A stretch of DNA of 64,000 bases from Trypanosoma brucei. Taxonomy: Eukaryota. Shown piece after piece: positions 1-48,000 of the stretch (the stretch's first letter is position 1; the number at the start of each line of letters is the position of its first letter). The position numbers were made by a program. The stretch covers positions 1,120,001 through 1,184,000 of the forward strand of contig AE017150.2 in assembly GCA_000002445.1 (NCBI GenBank), written 5' to 3'.

Positions 1-3000
1 TTGTATTAGTTACAATAATAAAAAATAGTGAAGCCAGCAGGAGGTGATAATTACAATTTGAACTCATCCCCTCTTGCCTATTTCACTATTCCCTTTGTTT
101 CTTGAGAAAATAACTAAAACAGTAAAACAAGAGAGAGGATAGTAATAAATTGAATGAAATCAACAATACATTATTTTAAGAGGAAATTTGATTTTACTTT
201 TTCTTTACTTTTCACTGTTTCTGTTTTTTGATTACTTTTACTTCCTTTCATTTCTTACTTTTTATTCCCATGACTGTGCTATGGTGTTACGGATATGTGT
301 GTGTAAGTGAGGAATGTTGTGTGGATTTGCTTCTATTATTGTTTACTTGCCTTTGGTTGTATACCACACGCCTGCTTATGTTTTCCCATATGTGTACGCC
401 TGCAGCAAACAGTGTGGGAATTTACTCCGTGACTTTTTCTCATAAATGTCGGGAGGCAAATGATTAAAGTGTTTTTTTTTGTTTAATATATCTGTATATG
501 TTTGTCTGTTTATGTGTGTGTGTTTGTGTGTACGTATTTGACATGTTCAGCAATATGTTTAGATTATCCAATAATAACTTCTCTTCCTTTCTATCTCTTA
601 TACAGTTATGTTGTTTACTTGTCACTGTTTTACTTTCAGGAAAGTGTATAAATTAAGCTGAAGCAACGTTATGTTTATTTGTGTATTAGGCGCATGAATT
701 CATTTTCTAGCAGTTAATGTACGTATGCATACACGCATGTGTTTAACTTTATAATGTCTTATACTAAAAATGTATTCAAATATTGCCATGTGAATACCGT
801 GTGAGGCTTATTGTATTTTTGTGTCGTGAAATAGTCAAGTAGTTGCTGTGTAACTTTTGTGTTATTCTTAAATAGATGACGTGTGTTTCCTTAGTTTAAA
901 ATATTTAATAAATGATTTGACAGCTGCTTGCATGTGAGAGTTTCATCCCTCTTCTTTGCTTAAAAATGTGCAGAGACTAGAATCCTTCATATAAATGATG
1001 TGAAATGCATAAATTATAAATTGCATTTCCACTCTCACGTATTTTAGTATTATGAAGTATCAAATAGGGAAATGATGAAATATGTAATAGGAAGTTATTC
1101 ACAACATGTTAATAGAGCAATTCAACTTCGCAGCTATCACAGAACAGGCTTTTTATTGTAATGCTCAATTGTGGAATAAGACATGCTTTATGAATTCTTG
1201 AGGATGGAGCGTTGTAATATTTTTAAAAGTAATATAAGTAAACAAGCAAACAAATTATCGTTTTTGTTTCTTCCTTCATAATCACTATAAGCTAAGCTAT
1301 TAGTCTATTAACAATAATTAATATGGCTACTAGTAAGGCAAAAGACGAGAAATAAGAAATTAATTTATAGGAAAGATTTGATAGTTTGACGAATGTGTAA
1401 TTATCATGTCTCTGATACTAATGACGGATTATGATAGAGAGAATGTGATTTGTGAGGTAGTTTTGATTCTCTGAAGTGATACAGCGGCGCATGGGAACTC
1501 GTCGTAAGGAAAAAAAATAAATAATGTGCGGTATGTAATTTTTAAACCTCACATTGATGAGGTTGTGAGGCATAAAATAACTCTTGACATTTTCCCAACG
1601 TGGCCAACAGTCGAAGAACTGGTACAACACTGCAGTAATGATACAGTGATGTTAAATTGAAAGCGAAAAATAAATATGAATGGCGTAAAAAGGGGGAAGG
1701 AAGTAGTGATGGTGGCGTAATCGATTGTTACTGTGTTTCATGACAAATTCTCTACATTCAATGATTCTAGAGGAAACAAGTACGTACCATAGCAGTGGTT
1801 ACTGTGTTTCCATAAGGAGTAAGTTATATTTACTGGAAAATGTGGTATTAAGAAATGTTATATGTGAGTAGCAATATACCTCAACACAGAGATGTACGCT
1901 CATGTAATCACTACACAAAAACCTTCCGAATGTTTTGAACGCGTTGACCGGATTGATGCGTCTCTCCAACCTTGAGTTGAAATGCACAACCCTTGAGTGT
2001 TGAGTTGGGATACATATTTTTAGATGTCACTAGAGCTTGATGTGTGGAATGAAACTCTAGAGCTCATGCATATGGCTAATGCTTATCATCGTCGTAACTT
2101 CCATGTTGGTACGATGATGTGCAGTTTGCTGTTAGTGATAGCCTTCAGCAGATTGTATGGTAGGTGGTGTTTCTCTGTTTGTTTTCTGTCACAGATGGCA
2201 ATGGAAGCGTCGACTATCTTTTGTATTACTCAGAAGGGAAAATTCTCTTTTTAAGTAATGGTAATGTTGAATCGTTGATAAAACCAACGGAATAATCCAT
2301 AAGCTAGTTTTAATTGGAGGAAAGGAGAATAGGAGAACTGCCAACTTTGATGTGTTGCCAACAAAGGAAAACGAGTGGTATGTATATTTTAGAACCCAGT
2401 GTTTTTCTTTCTTATCCGATGTACTTCCCTAATGTTTGGATCTGAGAAATACCTAATGATGATTAATACGGTTAGAGTTAGGGCATTCTTTTGTGATGCT
2501 GAATATCGCATCTATTGATAACAGCAATCGATACGCCATACTCAAACATAAATGAATTCTCACACATTAACGCTGCTTCTGGTATCGCCAACCGTTATGT
2601 TCAATAGCTCGTTACGTGGGAGCATGAGTGGATGTAATGATGGATGCCGCTTCATCAAAGGCAGCTGCGTGATACTTATCTCAGAATATGTCAATGGTGT
2701 CGTATTATAGCCAAGTTTAAGTCTAATAATTAATCATAGTGATGTGTGTGGAAAAAGTGAGATTGTACCATTGCAGTGAGTGAACCGCTTTGCTTGGGAC
2801 GTATTGCATTGTGCTGTGTGATTAAGCGCCGAGTTTGTTCACATCATACGTATGATATTTAGTTACTGTCAACCCACCGGATTGGTGTGGGAGGAGTGTA
2901 AGGCATCGTGCGAGCATGGGACATATGTTTCATCGCAGTGTCACGGAGGTTTTAAGGTATGGTGGAATATGGGAGGTGGATTAGCTATAGATCTCTTTGT

Positions 3001-45000: not shown

Positions 45001-48000
45001 TAGATCTCTTTGTGCCTTAACCTTTCGTGCTATTCTTTTTTTTCTCTCTGGAACTGATACAGTCTGGGGAGGCAGTGTGCTCAAGCTTTGCTAAGTTTTT
45101 GGAAGCAGGACTCACGACCCATCCCCCACTGTGTAATGTATGATGACCAGATTTGTTCTGAGGGAGCGTCAAACCAATCGTGTACGATGGGCGTGTAGAA
45201 CAGGAAGTAAAGGAAGGTGTGTTATTATATGCAAATGCAGATGAAATACTGCTCACAACACCTAAAGAAAGCAAAGTCACTCCTGACGGTTTTGATCATT
45301 TTATCAGTGTATCACAATCTAATCACCTTTGCTGCTGTAGAAGGCTCATTGCATAGTTGTGTGTATTTTGCTTTCAGAGCTTGAGACAACCAGTCACTTA
45401 CCGACCACTGTGGAGAGTGATCACGATGATGTCGTCGGCTTTCCTGTATGGAAGGAAGTATCATTTTGCTCTTCTGCTCGCGTAATTGTGTTCCTTTGTG
45501 TATCCGTGGAGTAGCGTTGTTATTGAAAAGAGGGATGATGAGTAGAATGGCGACTCAACACTTTTTCTTGTACTGAAGAAATACCAAGAGTTTTTTTCAG
45601 CAGGACAGACCTGCGGTGGCCATGTGGTTTAGATACCTCAGGGACAACTTCCATATTGCACAAGGAGAACTTCTGCGTCTTGAGGTGGCATGGCGCATGC
45701 TAGTGTTGGGATATCTGTACATTGGAATAGCAAGGTCTTCCAGGGAAGGAAGAGGGATACATAAGCCAGTGAAGGGCTGCACAGGTGCTGTGTCAGGTGT
45801 GAAGGTGATAGATGGCTCTAAGGAAGTGTCAGATGTGATTATACTCGGCAAGAGGTTGCTGCTCAAGGTTTTGATTATATACTTCCCGAGACGATCAAAT
45901 GTCGCGTAACTTACGTTGGAAGAAAGTTTAGGGGGAGCAATGGGATGAGGGAAGTCCCCACTGGATTGTTTGGTCGGATATACAACATGATAAGTGGAAG
46001 GTTTGTTGAAGAAGAACGCAGGTACACCACATCCAATAGGTGAGAAGGCAGTAATGGCCGTCTGAATGGTGTAGGTGTTGATTCCACAAATGATTACCTC
46101 TCTGATAAATTTGAGATATAGGAAAGTATAAGGTGAATTATATCTAGCTGCGTTGAGGAATGCCAATATGAGTATTGTTTTGTAGTTACTTCAATTTTTC
46201 AAGTGATCGCGAAAAAAAATTTTGTTCTTGCTGTTGATGTTATTTTTGGGGCAACTACCATCTACTGGAGAACCCTTATATTTAATGTTTTACCTACAAA
46301 TAACAAACTAAGATGTAACAATCATCAACAAGGAAGTTGAGGTCACAAAGACACAGCACTATGGAGAAGGGCGAAGATGGGGATGCAAGGTTAATGGGCT
46401 ACGTGAGGAGTTTTTAGAGCACCCGTGGCAGCAGCTGTGCGTGTGTTGTGATGTTGTCGACGTGCCGCAAGTCGAAGGCAGTAACGGAGCCATTTTCTAA
46501 CAAAGTCATAAACCTCTGTACAGAGGCCAAGTACACAGCCCATCTGGCAAATCACATCGTAGTGGAGGCAGAAAAGCGGGAGCGCGAAATATCCACCATA
46601 CAAATTTATGCAGAGGCATGGGATCTTGTTGCCGCAGCTAAAAACCAAACAGAGAAAGGGGCCACGACATACGCCCTTGCCACATACATTTCCAACGTAG
46701 CGGCGACAGCAAGGTGGGTCCGCAATTGGAAACACAAAGCAGCAGGGGCAACTGCGAAGTTGCTGTACAGGAGATCAGCGCTAACGTAGACGTTACAAGC
46801 GATGCGAGTAAAGGGACAGTCAGGAGCGGGACAAGTAACTAAACAACAAGGCGTCATCTCATCATGTTCACACAAGGAAACGCCGACTTTAAGCGACGAA
46901 GGGGATTGCGGGCGACAAGGCAGTGATGCTAACCATCCAGAATCAATTGCCGTAAATTTAAGGACAGCTACACACATCAAACTGGTACATGGCAGAAAAC
47001 TAAGACCTCTGGCGTTAGAGCACTCAGTTGACGTACAAGGAATGGCGGTGGTGAAAACGGAAGTGCAAGCCGATGGCTGCAAGGCCGTATCAGTCAGTGG
47101 ATATTATGCCAAATTCGTAGCATCAACGAAAGAAAATGACAGTAGCAGCACCGTAGCACCGATAAATATATTTGATGGCAACAATTCGAGTACAAGTTGC
47201 GTCGAACTAAAAGACGCCACGAAGAAATCAGAGAAGGATAACGACCTGCTGATAAACAAAATATGCAACTACATGAAAAAACCTGATCCTCAGATCATAA
47301 ACATATCCACTATAACGCCTGCCATGTTAGCAAACACAACTGCAGTCCGAGTGGCGTTCAGAAGCTTCATTCATGCAGCAACCGGTAAAGCACCTAGCGA
47401 CGGCGAAATCGAGTTTCAACTAAGAAACCTTTACGGATGGGACAAGCAACACTTCACAAGAGACTTCATAACAATTCTGAAGACAAAGAACGTGACGTAC
47501 CACACTGACTCAGGATTCGTAACTGAGACATTTCTTGATGCAGCTAAAAACGAAAACGCACACAAGGTGCTCATCTATCTAAAAAGTCAAAGAGCGACAA
47601 CACAGGCAAAGCAACCAAAGACAGACGAGAGCGAAATCAAAGGCCCGGTCTGCGGAGGTGAGGGCCAAGAGGAGTGCAAGTCAGGTGCAAGGAAAGACCC
47701 GGAGAAACCGAACGAAACTTAAATGCGGAAATGGCCTAAAGCACTTCAGTGGATGATGGCACAACAAGGAGAAAATTCCAAAGGAATACAGCAGGAAGGT
47801 TGTAAAGACGACTGCGCATCGGAAGAGGAAACTTGTGACGGCGCAGCTGGCATTTCTGCTTTGATGAGTATTTCTCTGTTCATGGCATTTTTTCTTCTAG
47901 CATAAAAATTTATTGGAATATCTTAATGTAGTAGAATTTGCATTTTTATGGAAATATATTATTATACGAAACCGTATCTTTGTTGAAATAACTTGTATAT

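What the first reader, a model, noticed from the sequence alone, without database searches (positions are those of the whole stretch)
1..46062. Tandem oxygenase+transporter array with two unit subtypes and concerted evolution
At least four and a half head-to-tail units each pair a 2OG/Fe(II) oxygenase with an ENT purine nucleoside transporter. Units C, D and E are ~99% identical in spacers, flanks and oxygenase and carry a ~460 bp spacer insert. Units A and B lack the insert. The 3' flank type of the NT gene alternates: 1-270 and 41567-41837 are one junction type, and 10140-10385, 20160-20433 and 30700-30967 are another. The organisation matches the T. brucei chr2 NT2-NT7 locus, but the copy number and subtype arrangement here may differ from the reference. 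Such differences would be strain-specific structural variation, and they are prone to assembly collapse.
Basis: partly seen in the sequence, partly recalled or inferred. Interest (0 to 1): 0.5.

Follow-up and report, generated by a model that had tools for sequence, protein, structure and literature searches.

The report
Known T. brucei transporter–oxygenase gene array
This is the right-hand two thirds of the already published tandem array of purine nucleoside transporter (NT2-NT7) and iron/ascorbate oxidoreductase genes at the end of Trypanosoma brucei TREU927 chromosome 2; the repeat structure is real, but the window is the reference genome itself, so the finding is ordinary.

Summary
Window 1-46060 is a head-to-tail array with a 10.1-10.5 kb period. 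It holds four complete oxygenase + ENT transporter pairs and a geneless terminal half unit. There are two spacer haplotypes (A≈B; C≈D≈E), a 467-469 bp segment found only in C/D/E, and two kinds of transporter 3' flank.

The suggestion that this copy may differ from the reference is not supported. All eight proteins are exact matches, in order, to XP_951749-XP_951756 of T. b. brucei TREU927 chromosome 2. The window therefore appears to be the reference itself.

The main features are already published (Jensen 2009, Jackson 2010, Carnes 2015):
- the alternating array next to the subtelomeric VSG cluster;
- co-upregulation of both gene types in bloodstream forms;
- a recombinant mosaic structure;
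- copy-number differences between subspecies.

My additions are details. The B-type oxygenase, the type II 3' flank and the full C/D-type spacers are absent from the T. b. gambiense DAL972 and T. b. equiperdum assemblies. The truncated terminal half unit and the array/VSG boundary at 46060 are shared by all three genomes. Paralogous spacers within TREU927 (99.7-99.8%) are far more alike than orthologous ones (94.6-96.4%). The transporter-oxygenase pairing is specific to the T. brucei lineage. Assembly correctness could not be tested without reads.

The parts
1..257 (+). Distal part of a type I 3' flank. It belongs to the transporter gene just upstream of the window (inferred Tb927.2.6200).
   Evidence: It aligns to 41566-41823 at about 92%. 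The common spacer sequence resumes at 258.
258..5002 (+). Unit A spacer, AB haplotype, without the 467-469 bp segment.
   Evidence: It is 97.4% identical to the B spacer and 87-93% to C/D/E. It contains no Pfam-positive ORF.
5003..5962 (+). Oxygenase A (A-type isoform, 319 aa, C-terminal SKM). It equals XP_951749.
   Evidence: Pfam DIOX_N + 2OG-FeII_Oxy. Exact match. The centre 5176-5676 is 99.4-99.8% identical to the Tbg/Tbe oxygenases and only 74-76% identical to B/C/D.
8353..9741 (+). ENT transporter A (462 aa). It equals XP_951750 (inferred Tb927.2.6220 / TbNT4). It is the most divergent of the four copies.
   Evidence: PF01733. Exact match. It is 78-82% aa identical to B/C/D.
9742..10368 (+). 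Type II 3' flank of transporter A (B variant).
   Evidence: Alignment. It is about 80% identical to the C/D versions and has no counterpart in Tbg/Tbe.
15099..16058 (+). Oxygenase B (B-type isoform). It equals XP_951751.
18452..19843 (+). ENT transporter B (463 aa). It equals XP_951752 (inferred Tb927.2.6240 / TbNT5).
   Evidence: Name mapping comes from PMC2835760, assuming locus tags ascend along the chromosome.
19844..20419 (+). Type II 3' flank of transporter B.
   Evidence: It is 100% identical to the D copy over most of its length.
23054..23520 (.). The 467-bp segment specific to C/D/E spacers (unit C copy).
   Evidence: No poly(A) tail or target-site duplication is present.
25623..26582 (+). 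Oxygenase C (B-type). It equals XP_951753.
28974..30374 (+). ENT transporter C (466 aa). It equals XP_951754 (inferred Tb927.2.6280 / TbNT6).
30375..30958 (+). Type II 3' flank of transporter C.
33594..34062 (.). The 469-bp segment (unit D copy).
36168..37127 (+). Oxygenase D (B-type). It equals XP_951755.
39520..40908 (+). ENT transporter D, the last gene of the array (462 aa). It equals XP_951756 (inferred Tb927.2.6320 / TbNT7).
   Evidence: It is orthologous to the last transporter of Tbg (98.1%) and Tbe (96.0%).
40909..41823 (+). Type I 3' flank of the last transporter (915 bp, with an AT-rich stretch of about 500 bp that type II lacks).
   Evidence: It is present at 94-95% in Tbg and Tbe.
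41824..46060 (+). Terminal half unit E: a C/D-type spacer, including the 467-bp segment at 44460-44926, truncated before any oxygenase.
   Evidence: It is 99.79% identical to C and 99.67% to D. Identity ends abruptly at 46060/46061. The same truncated half unit and boundary are present in Tbg and Tbe.
46448..47905 (+). Atypical-VSG pseudogene, the first subtelomeric element after the array.
   Evidence: Homologues are 509-aa 'VSG, atypical' proteins. tblastn places residues 24-509 in one frame, with in-frame stops at 46787-46789 and 47720-47722.
53010..62456 (-). Subtelomeric VSG genes and pseudogenes plus a retroposon remnant on the opposite strand.
   Evidence: VSG_B hits at 54412-55053, 55329-56039, 58227-59708, 60882-61691 and 61782-62456. 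Exo_endo_phos_2 hit at 53010-53327. GC skew reverses near 50 kb.

Best explanation
The window is the reference sequence of the right end of the core of Trypanosoma brucei brucei TREU927 chromosome 2. It covers the last four of five full repeats of the two-gene unit [iron/ascorbate-type 2OG-Fe(II) oxygenase + P1-type ENT purine nucleoside transporter]. It also covers a geneless terminal half unit and the start of the subtelomeric VSG array.

**How it works**
- All array genes lie on one strand, which fits their being part of one polycistronic transcription unit. Individual mRNAs would be made by trans-splicing and polyadenylation (established for trypanosomes, not shown here).
- Tandem copies raise dosage and hold diverged transporter isoforms (inferred).
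- Both gene types are more abundant in bloodstream forms (literature).
- The array evolves by unequal crossing-over and by gene conversion. Conversion homogenises the spacers, the oxygenase ends and the oxygenase-to-transporter intergenic region.
- The transporter coding regions remain diverged mosaics under purifying selection.

**Two old unit lineages coexist in TREU927**
- A-type units have the AB spacer and the A-type oxygenase. They are shared with T. b. gambiense and T. b. equiperdum.
- C/D-type units have the spacer carrying the 467-469 bp segment, the B-type oxygenase and the type II transporter 3' flank. In the other two assemblies this lineage is represented only by the truncated terminal half unit.
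For: **Identity with the reference.** Four transporters and four oxygenases are exact matches to XP_951749-XP_951756, in order, on the 1,193,948-bp TREU927 record.

**Layout.**
[quoted passage not shown] Both are up in bloodstream forms (transporters 8-21x, oxidoreductases 3-13x).
- The window shows exactly this, with VSG_B genes from 54 kb on the opposite strand.

**Gene families.**
- PF01733, and DIOX_N + 2OG-FeII_Oxy, all score above the gathering thresholds.
- HxD(199-201), H256 and RxS(265-267) are intact in both oxygenase isoforms, and all four end in SKM.

**Concerted evolution and mosaicism.**
- Spacer informative sites: 374 AB|CD and none of the other two kinds.
- Transporter CDS: 34 AD|BC, 26 AC|BD and 20 AB|CD, arranged in runs. 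There are 29 switches against 52±4 in permutations, and 0 of 5000 permutations reach the observed value.
- C vs D flanks are 98.9-99.6% identical, but the transporter CDS is 89.0% identical.
- The E half unit is 99.7-99.8% identical to its paralogues C and D, but only 94.6% and 96.4% to its orthologues in Tbg and Tbe.
- Oxygenase A vs B: the centre has dS 0.75 and the ends have dS 0.06-0.18.
- Purifying selection: dN/dS is 0.21-0.30 for the transporters and 0.29 for the oxygenase.
- Jackson 2010 independently reports PHI p<0.001 and at least 10 breakpoints for this array.

**Lineage structure.**
- The type II flank and the B-type oxygenase centre have no hit in the Tbg and Tbe loci.
- The 467-469 bp segment occurs there only in the terminal half unit.
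- The boundary at 46060 is shared by all three genomes.
Against: - No DNA of the TREU927 record was available, so identity with the reference is shown at protein level only.
- The locus-tag and TbNT-name assignment of the four transporters is inferred from order, not looked up.
- Exact repeats of up to 1983 bp between units C and D leave room for an undetected extra or missing C/D-type unit in the Sanger assembly. No reads could be examined.
- The Tbg and Tbe arrays may themselves be collapsed, which would weaken the claim that C/D-type units are absent there. A B-type oxygenase does exist on a 3.1-kb contig of T. equiperdum.
- Polycistronic transcription and 3'-UTR control are established for trypanosomes but are not shown by this sequence.
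Confidence: 0.93

Rival explanations
1. The window comes from a different T. brucei strain or assembly, and its array differs structurally from the TREU927 reference.
For: Copy number does differ among Trypanozoon genomes: 6/5 annotated copies in Tbb against 3/2 in Tbg, 3 NT/2 Ox in DAL972 and 2 NT/1 Ox in the T. b. equiperdum assembly.
Against: Eight of eight array proteins are exact matches to consecutive TREU927 accessions. The best conserved orthologue differs by 2-4% at DNA level in the other subspecies. The B-type oxygenase and the type II flank are missing from the other loci examined.
Confidence: 0.03
2. Part of the repeat structure, especially the near-identical units C, D and E, is an assembly artefact. 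One unit may have been duplicated in silico, or several real units collapsed.
For: C, D and E are 99.3-99.8% identical over 4-6 kb. Exact repeats reach 1983 bp, which is longer than a Sanger read.
Against: - Units C and D carry clearly different transporter genes (89% identical, 466 vs 462 aa) and 40 + 25 substitutions in their flanks. They are therefore not copies of one template.
- No exact repeat exceeds 2 kb, so paired clone ends would bridge them.
- The terminal half unit and its boundary are reproduced in two independent assemblies.
- Six distinct TbNT genes are treated as separate genes in the literature.
Confidence: 0.05
3. The pairing of transporter and oxygenase reflects a functional module. 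The oxygenase would act on the transported purines or nucleosides, for example in the glycosome. On this view the pairing is not an accident of which segment was duplicated.
For: - The two genes are co-amplified and co-upregulated in bloodstream forms.
- The oxygenases carry a PTS1-like SKM (PMC4288722).
- Some kinetoplastid orthologues are labelled 'putative thymine-7-hydroxylase'.
- Both genes are under purifying selection.
Against: - In T. cruzi and L. donovani the orthologous oxygenase is a single gene between TTL and RIO1 with no transporter nearby. In T. vivax no transporter lies within 10 kb.
- The closest solved relatives are not thymine dioxygenase: 9ovh scores 9e-59 and 6jyv 5e-53, against 5c3p at 2e-40.
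- T. evansi has partly lost the oxygenases.
- Co-regulation could come from shared locus or UTR sequence.
Confidence: 0.12

Closest known systems
T. brucei TREU927 chromosome 2 NT2-NT7 / iron-ascorbate oxidoreductase array (Tb927.2.6150-6320)
   Same: Everything that could be tested matches: exact proteins in the same order, alternating arrangement, an extra terminal transporter, and adjacency to the subtelomeric VSG cluster.
   Different: Nothing was found to differ. The window simply lacks the first 1.5 units (NT2, the first oxygenase and NT3).
The orthologous arrays of T. b. gambiense DAL972 (FN554965.1) and T. b. equiperdum (CM010673.1)
   Same: They share the same two-gene unit, the same last transporter, the same type I 3' flank, the same truncated terminal half unit with the 467-469 bp segment, and the same boundary to the atypical VSG pseudogene.
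   Different: They have only 3 NT/2 Ox and 2 NT/1 Ox. All their oxygenases are A-type. They have no type II flank and no full C/D-type unit. Their orthologous non-coding sequence is only 94.6-96.4% identical to TREU927.
Other variable tandem gene arrays of T. brucei analysed by Jackson 2007/2010 (e.g. ISG65, amino acid transporters, GRESAG4)
   Same: All are head-to-tail arrays whose copies are recombinant mosaics, with subspecies-specific isoforms and copy numbers.
   Different: Here the repeated unit holds two unrelated genes. The non-coding parts are homogenised much more strongly (99%+) than one of the two coding regions (77-94%).
Fungal thymine-7-hydroxylase (thymine dioxygenase, PDB 5c3p), for the oxygenase
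   Same: It has the same DIOX_N + 2OG-FeII_Oxy architecture and is a clear homologue (E 2e-40). Some kinetoplastid orthologues carry this name.
   Different: It is not the nearest solved relative. No substrate evidence exists, and Jensen 2009 states that the genes are functionally uncharacterised.

Membership tests
T. brucei TREU927 chr2 NT2-NT7/IAO array | Proteins identical to the annotated array members, in the same order | tested here: met
   Exact matches to XP_951749-XP_951756 on the 1,193,948-bp record.
T. brucei TREU927 chr2 NT2-NT7/IAO array | Alternating transporter/oxidoreductase genes ending with an extra transporter, immediately next to the subtelomeric VSG cluster | tested here: met
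   Gene order, and VSG_B genes from 54 kb, match the descriptions in PMC2771046 and PMC4288722.
T. brucei TREU927 chr2 NT2-NT7/IAO array | Nucleotide identity to the reference chromosome | not testable with these tools
   No TREU927 DNA was retrievable. The look-up of encoding contigs had no record for the exact protein.
Equilibrative nucleoside transporter (ENT/SLC29, PF01733) | Significant match to the family profile above the curated cut-off | tested here: met
   Scores are 99.7-111.4 bits against a cut-off of 29.8 for all four proteins.
Equilibrative nucleoside transporter (ENT/SLC29, PF01733) | Eleven transmembrane segments with a large hydrophilic loop between TM6 and TM7 | tested here: inconclusive
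   A crude Kyte-Doolittle scan gives about 6 hydrophobic segments before residue 214, a hydrophilic stretch at 214-309 and about 5 after it. No dedicated topology predictor was run.
Equilibrative nucleoside transporter (ENT/SLC29, PF01733) | Nucleoside/nucleobase transport activity | not testable with these tools
   Activity of TbNT2-7 is known only from literature that I could not retrieve here (Sanchez et al. 2002, from memory).
2OG-Fe(II) oxygenase superfamily (DIOX_N + 2OG-FeII_Oxy) | Both Pfam domains above cut-off | tested here: met
   DIOX_N scores 112.7-116.5 bits (cut-off 27.3). 2OG-FeII_Oxy scores 86.9-94.5 bits (cut-off 23).
2OG-Fe(II) oxygenase superfamily (DIOX_N + 2OG-FeII_Oxy) | HxD...H iron-binding triad and RxS 2-oxoglutarate-binding motif | tested here: met
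   H199-x-D201, H256 (KHRV) and R265-x-S267 are present in all four copies and both isoforms. They align with the corresponding residues of 9ovh.
Thymine-7-hydroxylase | Closest characterised relative is thymine dioxygenase | tested here: not met
   5c3p ranks seventh (2e-40), behind 9ovh, 6jyv, SpoC and TropC. The array oxygenase should not be filed under this name.
Glycosomal (PTS1) protein | C-terminal tripeptide fitting [SAC][KRH][LM] | tested here: met
   All four oxygenases end in SKM. A putative PTS1 is also noted in PMC4288722. Localisation itself was not tested.
Concerted evolution of a tandem array | Paralogues within a genome more similar than orthologues between genomes | tested here: met
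   E vs C/D is 99.67-99.79%, whereas E(927) vs E(Tbg) is 94.57% and vs E(Tbe) is 96.36%.
Concerted evolution of a tandem array | Mosaic (recombinant) pattern of shared variants along the units | tested here: met
   Informative-site topologies are clustered: 29 switches vs 52±4, with 0/5000 permutations reaching this, in the transporter CDS. There are 38 vs 125±4.5 over whole units.
Retroposon (RIME/SIDER-like) insertion, for the 467-469 bp segment | Terminal poly(A) and target-site duplication | tested here: not met
   The sequence shows neither. There is only imperfect microhomology (AACATAGG / AGCATGGG) at the two edges, which is compatible with a deletion in the AB lineage.

The most novel reading that the evidence does not exclude
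C/D-type units combine the B-type oxygenase (centre dS 0.75 from A-type), the type II transporter 3' flank and the spacer with the extra segment. They may be a second, ancient unit lineage kept in some T. brucei strains and lost in others. On this reading the two oxygenase isoforms and the two 3'-UTR types would give functionally different enzyme and transporter expression. The oxygenase might even act on transported purines in the glycosome.
Probability: 0.12. Interest if true: 0.4.

Novelty: already known. Interest (0 to 1): 0.1.

Why it matters
The NT2-NT7 (P1-type) transporters carry purine nucleosides and nucleoside-analogue drugs into a parasite that cannot make purines. Copy number and isoform content of this array are therefore relevant to drug uptake and resistance. 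However, the array, its mosaic evolution and its variation between subspecies are already in the literature, and this window is the reference copy, so nothing new is revealed about structural variation.

Two small questions remain open. The first is what the co-amplified, bloodstream-induced, probably glycosomal oxygenase does. The second is whether the two 3'-flank types regulate the transporter genes differently.

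Tried and rejected
**No result**
- Rfam scan of the whole window: no family reached threshold.
- tRNA scan: none found.
- Pfam on the longest ORFs of the ~5 kb spacers (3591-3923, 3886-4191, 24191-24661, 24505-24810, 45597-46166): no hits. These ORFs are not conserved between spacer haplotypes, so I treat the spacers as non-coding.

**The 467-469 bp segment as a retroposon: rejected**
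- It has no poly(A) tail and no target-site duplication.

**A donor paralogue for the B-type oxygenase centre: none found**
- No paralogue is closer than the A-type (82%). The next is 66%.

**An ancient NT-Ox synteny: rejected**
- T. cruzi, L. donovani and T. vivax lack it.

**The 306-aa ORF at 46802-47722 as a fast-evolving new gene: rejected**
- It is part of an atypical-VSG pseudogene.

**Retrieval failures**
- TREU927 DNA was not obtainable.
- El-Sayed 2003 (chromosome II paper) is not held.
- Jackson 2007 does not mention this array in its text or supplements.
- Three literature searches returned nothing.

**An error of my own**
- In one search the oxygenase A query started one codon too early (5000 instead of 5003) and so missed its exact match. 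This was corrected.

Full report

Yes. A self-comparison of the window gives long off-diagonal matches at offsets of 10.1-10.5 kb and their multiples. Examples are 12997-30466 vs 23509-40998 (96.3% over 17.5 kb), 258-9729 vs 10369-19837 (93.9%), and 30954-35196 and 20415-24654 vs 41824-46060 (99.5% and 99.7%). No repeat extends past 46060.

ORF listing and Pfam scans show four complete gene pairs on the + strand:
- Each pair has a 319-aa protein with DIOX_N and 2OG-FeII_Oxy domains (5003-5962, 15099-16058, 25623-26582, 36168-37127).
- About 2.4 kb downstream of it lies a 462-466-aa ENT transporter, PF01733 (8353-9741, 18452-19843, 28974-30374, 39520-40908).

I defined units from transporter stop to transporter stop:
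- A is 1-9741 and is cut by the window start.
- B is 9742-19843 (10102 bp).
- C is 19844-30374 (10531 bp).
- D is 30375-40908 (10534 bp).
- E is 40909-46060 and is a geneless half unit.

**2.

The '~460 bp insert' is a 467-469 bp segment. It is present in C (23054-23520), D (33594-34062) and E (44460-44926). It is absent from A (after 2912) and B (after 13008). It has no poly(A) tail and no target-site duplication, only imperfect microhomology at its edges. It may equally be a deletion in the A/B lineage.

Both kinds of transporter 3' flank exist at the stated coordinates:
- Type I is 1-257 and 40909-41823.
- Type II is 9742-10368, 19844-20419 and 30375-30958.
- Their order is I, II, II, II, I, which is not an alternation.
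- B's type II flank is only about 80% identical to the C and D copies, which are identical to each other.

Segment identities:
- C vs D is 99.3% from transporter stop to oxygenase start.
- C vs D is 99.6% in the oxygenase and 98.9% in the oxygenase-to-transporter intergenic region.
- C vs D is only 89.0% in the transporter CDS.
- E vs C is 99.79% and E vs D is 99.67%.
- The A and B spacers are 97.4% alike and 87-93% identical to C/D/E.
- The oxygenase-to-transporter intergenic region is 98.5-98.9% identical in all four units.

The oxygenase groups differently from the spacers. B, C and D differ from each other by two residues per pair. A is 74-76% identical to them at DNA level in its central 500 bp and nearly identical at both ends.

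**3. What it is**

An exact-sequence look-up shows that all eight proteins are identical to XP_951749, 951750, 951751, 951752, 951753, 951754, 951755 and 951756. These are consecutive entries of the 1,193,948-bp record of T. brucei brucei TREU927, which is chromosome 2. They are named 'iron/ascorbate oxidoreductase family protein' and 'adenosine transporter 2'.

Published descriptions fit the window exactly:
- Jensen et al. [quoted passage not shown] Both gene types are more abundant in bloodstream than in procyclic forms.
- Carnes et al. [quoted passage not shown] They also note strain variation, partial loss in T. evansi and a putative PTS1 on the oxidoreductases.
- Jackson et al. 2010 (PMC2854126) list the array as 12bi/12bii. 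It has 6 vs 3 transporter and 5 vs 2 oxidoreductase copies in T. b. brucei vs T. b. gambiense, PHI p<0.001 and at least 10 recombination breakpoints.

The window therefore holds the last four of five full units, plus the terminal half unit and the beginning of the VSG region.

If locus tags ascend along the chromosome, the four transporters are Tb927.2.6220, 6240, 6280 and 6320. With TbNT2 = Tb927.2.6150 and TbNT5 = Tb927.2.6240 (PMC2835760), they are TbNT4-TbNT7. This mapping is inferred, not looked up.

**4. Comparison with other genomes**

I fetched the orthologous loci of T. b. gambiense DAL972 (FN554965.1 849677-881437) and T. b. equiperdum (CM010673.1 707601-739431). They hold 3 NT/2 Ox and 2 NT/1 Ox respectively. 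Painting them with window segments shows the following:
- All their oxygenases are A-type. They are 99.4-99.8% identical to 5176-5676 and only 76.7% identical to the B-type centre.
- Their full spacers are of the A/B haplotype.
- The type II flank has no counterpart in either locus.
- The 467-469 bp segment occurs once in each, in a terminal truncated half unit that is orthologous to E.
- The alignment runs across the boundary at 46060/46061 in both genomes.

The truncation and the array/subtelomere boundary therefore predate the split of these lineages. A B-type oxygenase does exist in a small contig of T. equiperdum (cluster 4), so the C/D-type lineage is not private to TREU927.

Paralogous E/C/D spacers within TREU927 are 99.7-99.8% identical. 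The orthologous E half units are only 94.6% (Tbg) and 96.4% (Tbe) identical to TREU927's. This is the formal signature of concerted evolution or of very recent duplication.

**5. Evolutionary mechanics**

Phylogenetically informative sites among units A-D show a clear pattern:
- Outside the genes, 374 sites support AB|CD and none support the other two groupings.
- Inside the transporter CDS all three groupings occur (34 AD|BC, 26 AC|BD, 20 AB|CD), in clustered runs.
- There are 29 switches against 52±4 after permutation, and 0 of 5000 permutations reach the observed value.

Synonymous divergence:
- Transporter copies differ by dS 0.25-0.55.
- The B/C/D oxygenases, which lie between the transporter genes, differ by dS only 0.010-0.025.

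The transporter differences therefore cannot have arisen since the flanks last shared a template. Either the flanks were homogenised around old, selectively maintained coding differences, or patches were imported from other copies.

dN/dS is 0.21-0.30 for all transporter pairs and 0.29 for oxygenase A vs B (centre dS 0.75, ends 0.06-0.18). Both genes are therefore under purifying selection.

Short patches of 100% identity occur inside otherwise 88-93% identical spacers (B 11514-11764 and A 1668-1916 vs C/D/E). They look like individual conversion tracts.

**6. The proteins**

- *Transporters.* They match PF01733 at 100-111 bits. A crude hydropathy scan is compatible with the 6 + 5 helix ENT layout and a long loop at 214-309.
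- *Oxygenases.* They keep H199-x-D201, H256 and R265-x-S267, and all end in SKM.
- *Solved relatives of the oxygenase.* The nearest are 9ovh (9e-59) and 6jyv (5e-53). Thymine dioxygenase 5c3p ranks only seventh (2e-40). The 'thymine-7-hydroxylase' label carried by some kinetoplastid orthologues is therefore not supported.
- *Synteny.* In T. cruzi and L. donovani the orthologue is a single gene between TTL and RIO1 with no transporter nearby. The T. vivax copy has none within 10 kb. The two-gene unit therefore arose in the T. brucei lineage. Co-amplification is most simply explained by which segment happened to be duplicated. A functional link remains possible but unproven.

**7. Assembly question**

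The longest exact repeats between units are 1983 bp (C-D), 1786 bp (A-C) and 1389 bp (C-E). Short reads alone would collapse the array. Paired clone ends or long reads would not.

Units C and D carry different transporter genes and 65 substitutions in their flanks, so they are not one unit counted twice. Whether an additional C/D-type unit is missing cannot be decided without reads.

**8. Right flank**

- 46448-47905 (+) is an atypical-VSG pseudogene. 509-aa relatives align over residues 24-509 in one frame, with two in-frame stops.
- 53010-53327 (-) is an endonuclease fragment of an ingi-like retroposon.
- 54412-62456 (-) holds VSG_B genes and fragments.
- GC skew turns negative near 50 kb, which fits the change of coding strand.

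**9. Verdict**

The point that made it interesting, a possible departure from the reference, is not supported, because the window is the reference. The array and its evolutionary behaviour are already known. What this analysis adds is descriptive:
- the two unit lineages;
- the shared truncated terminal half unit;
- the paralogue-versus-orthologue identity contrast;
- the lineage-specific origin of the two-gene unit.

Noticed in passing
window 46448-47905 (+): An atypical-VSG pseudogene lies about 390 bp right of the array boundary, with in-frame stops at 46787-46789 and 47720-47722. Its 306-aa ORF (46802-47722) is open in TREU927, Tbg and Tbe. It is only 73% aa identical between TREU927 and the other two (dS 0.41, dN 0.16), while the Tbg and Tbe copies differ by one synonymous site.
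   Followed up: yes
window 48500-50800 vs Tbg/Tbe (merged L001+L003 29500-31700; L002+L004 29500-31800): The non-coding right flank is only 77-88% identical between TREU927 and the other two subspecies. This is far below the usual level and suggests a deeply diverged haplotype at the core/subtelomere boundary.
   Followed up: no
window 53010-53327 (-): A 105-aa ORF matches Exo_endo_phos_2 (endonuclease-reverse transcriptase, E 2e-9). It is a remnant of an ingi-like retroposon between the array and the VSG genes.
   Followed up: partly
window 58227-59708 (-), 60882-62456 (-), 54412-56039 (-): There is a 493-aa VSG_B ORF that ends ...ECKWENYY without a hydrophobic GPI-signal tail. There is also a VSG split into two ORFs by a frameshift, and two adjacent partial VSG_B pieces. 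All are probably pseudogenes, and none is in the protein collection as an exact sequence.
   Followed up: partly
oxygenase genes, e.g. window 15099-16058: The array oxygenase is 50-52% identical to many Pseudomonas 2OG-Fe(II) oxygenases. This is about the same as its identity to Leishmania orthologues (52%), and hints at an ancient bacterial origin of the kinetoplastid gene.
   Followed up: no
L006-L010 (T. cruzi, L. donovani), gene at 10001-10960: Outside T. brucei the oxygenase orthologue is a single-copy gene in a conserved TTL - oxygenase - RIO1 - Sec23/24 neighbourhood.
   Followed up: partly
window 11514-11764 and 1668-1916: Patches of about 250 bp are 100% identical to units C/D/E, inside spacers that are otherwise 88-93% identical to them. 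They look like individual short gene-conversion tracts.
   Followed up: no
L002 2072-4442: In T. b. equiperdum the left edge of the array is visible. A ribosomal protein L44 gene and a 488-aa hypothetical gene precede the first transporter. Window-like sequence starts only about 1.5 kb upstream of that transporter.
   Followed up: no
L001 10001-11376: The middle transporter gene of T. b. gambiense was reported as 'translates_to_query: no' for its own 458-aa product. This suggests an annotation or coordinate quirk, or a frameshift, in that record.
   Followed up: no
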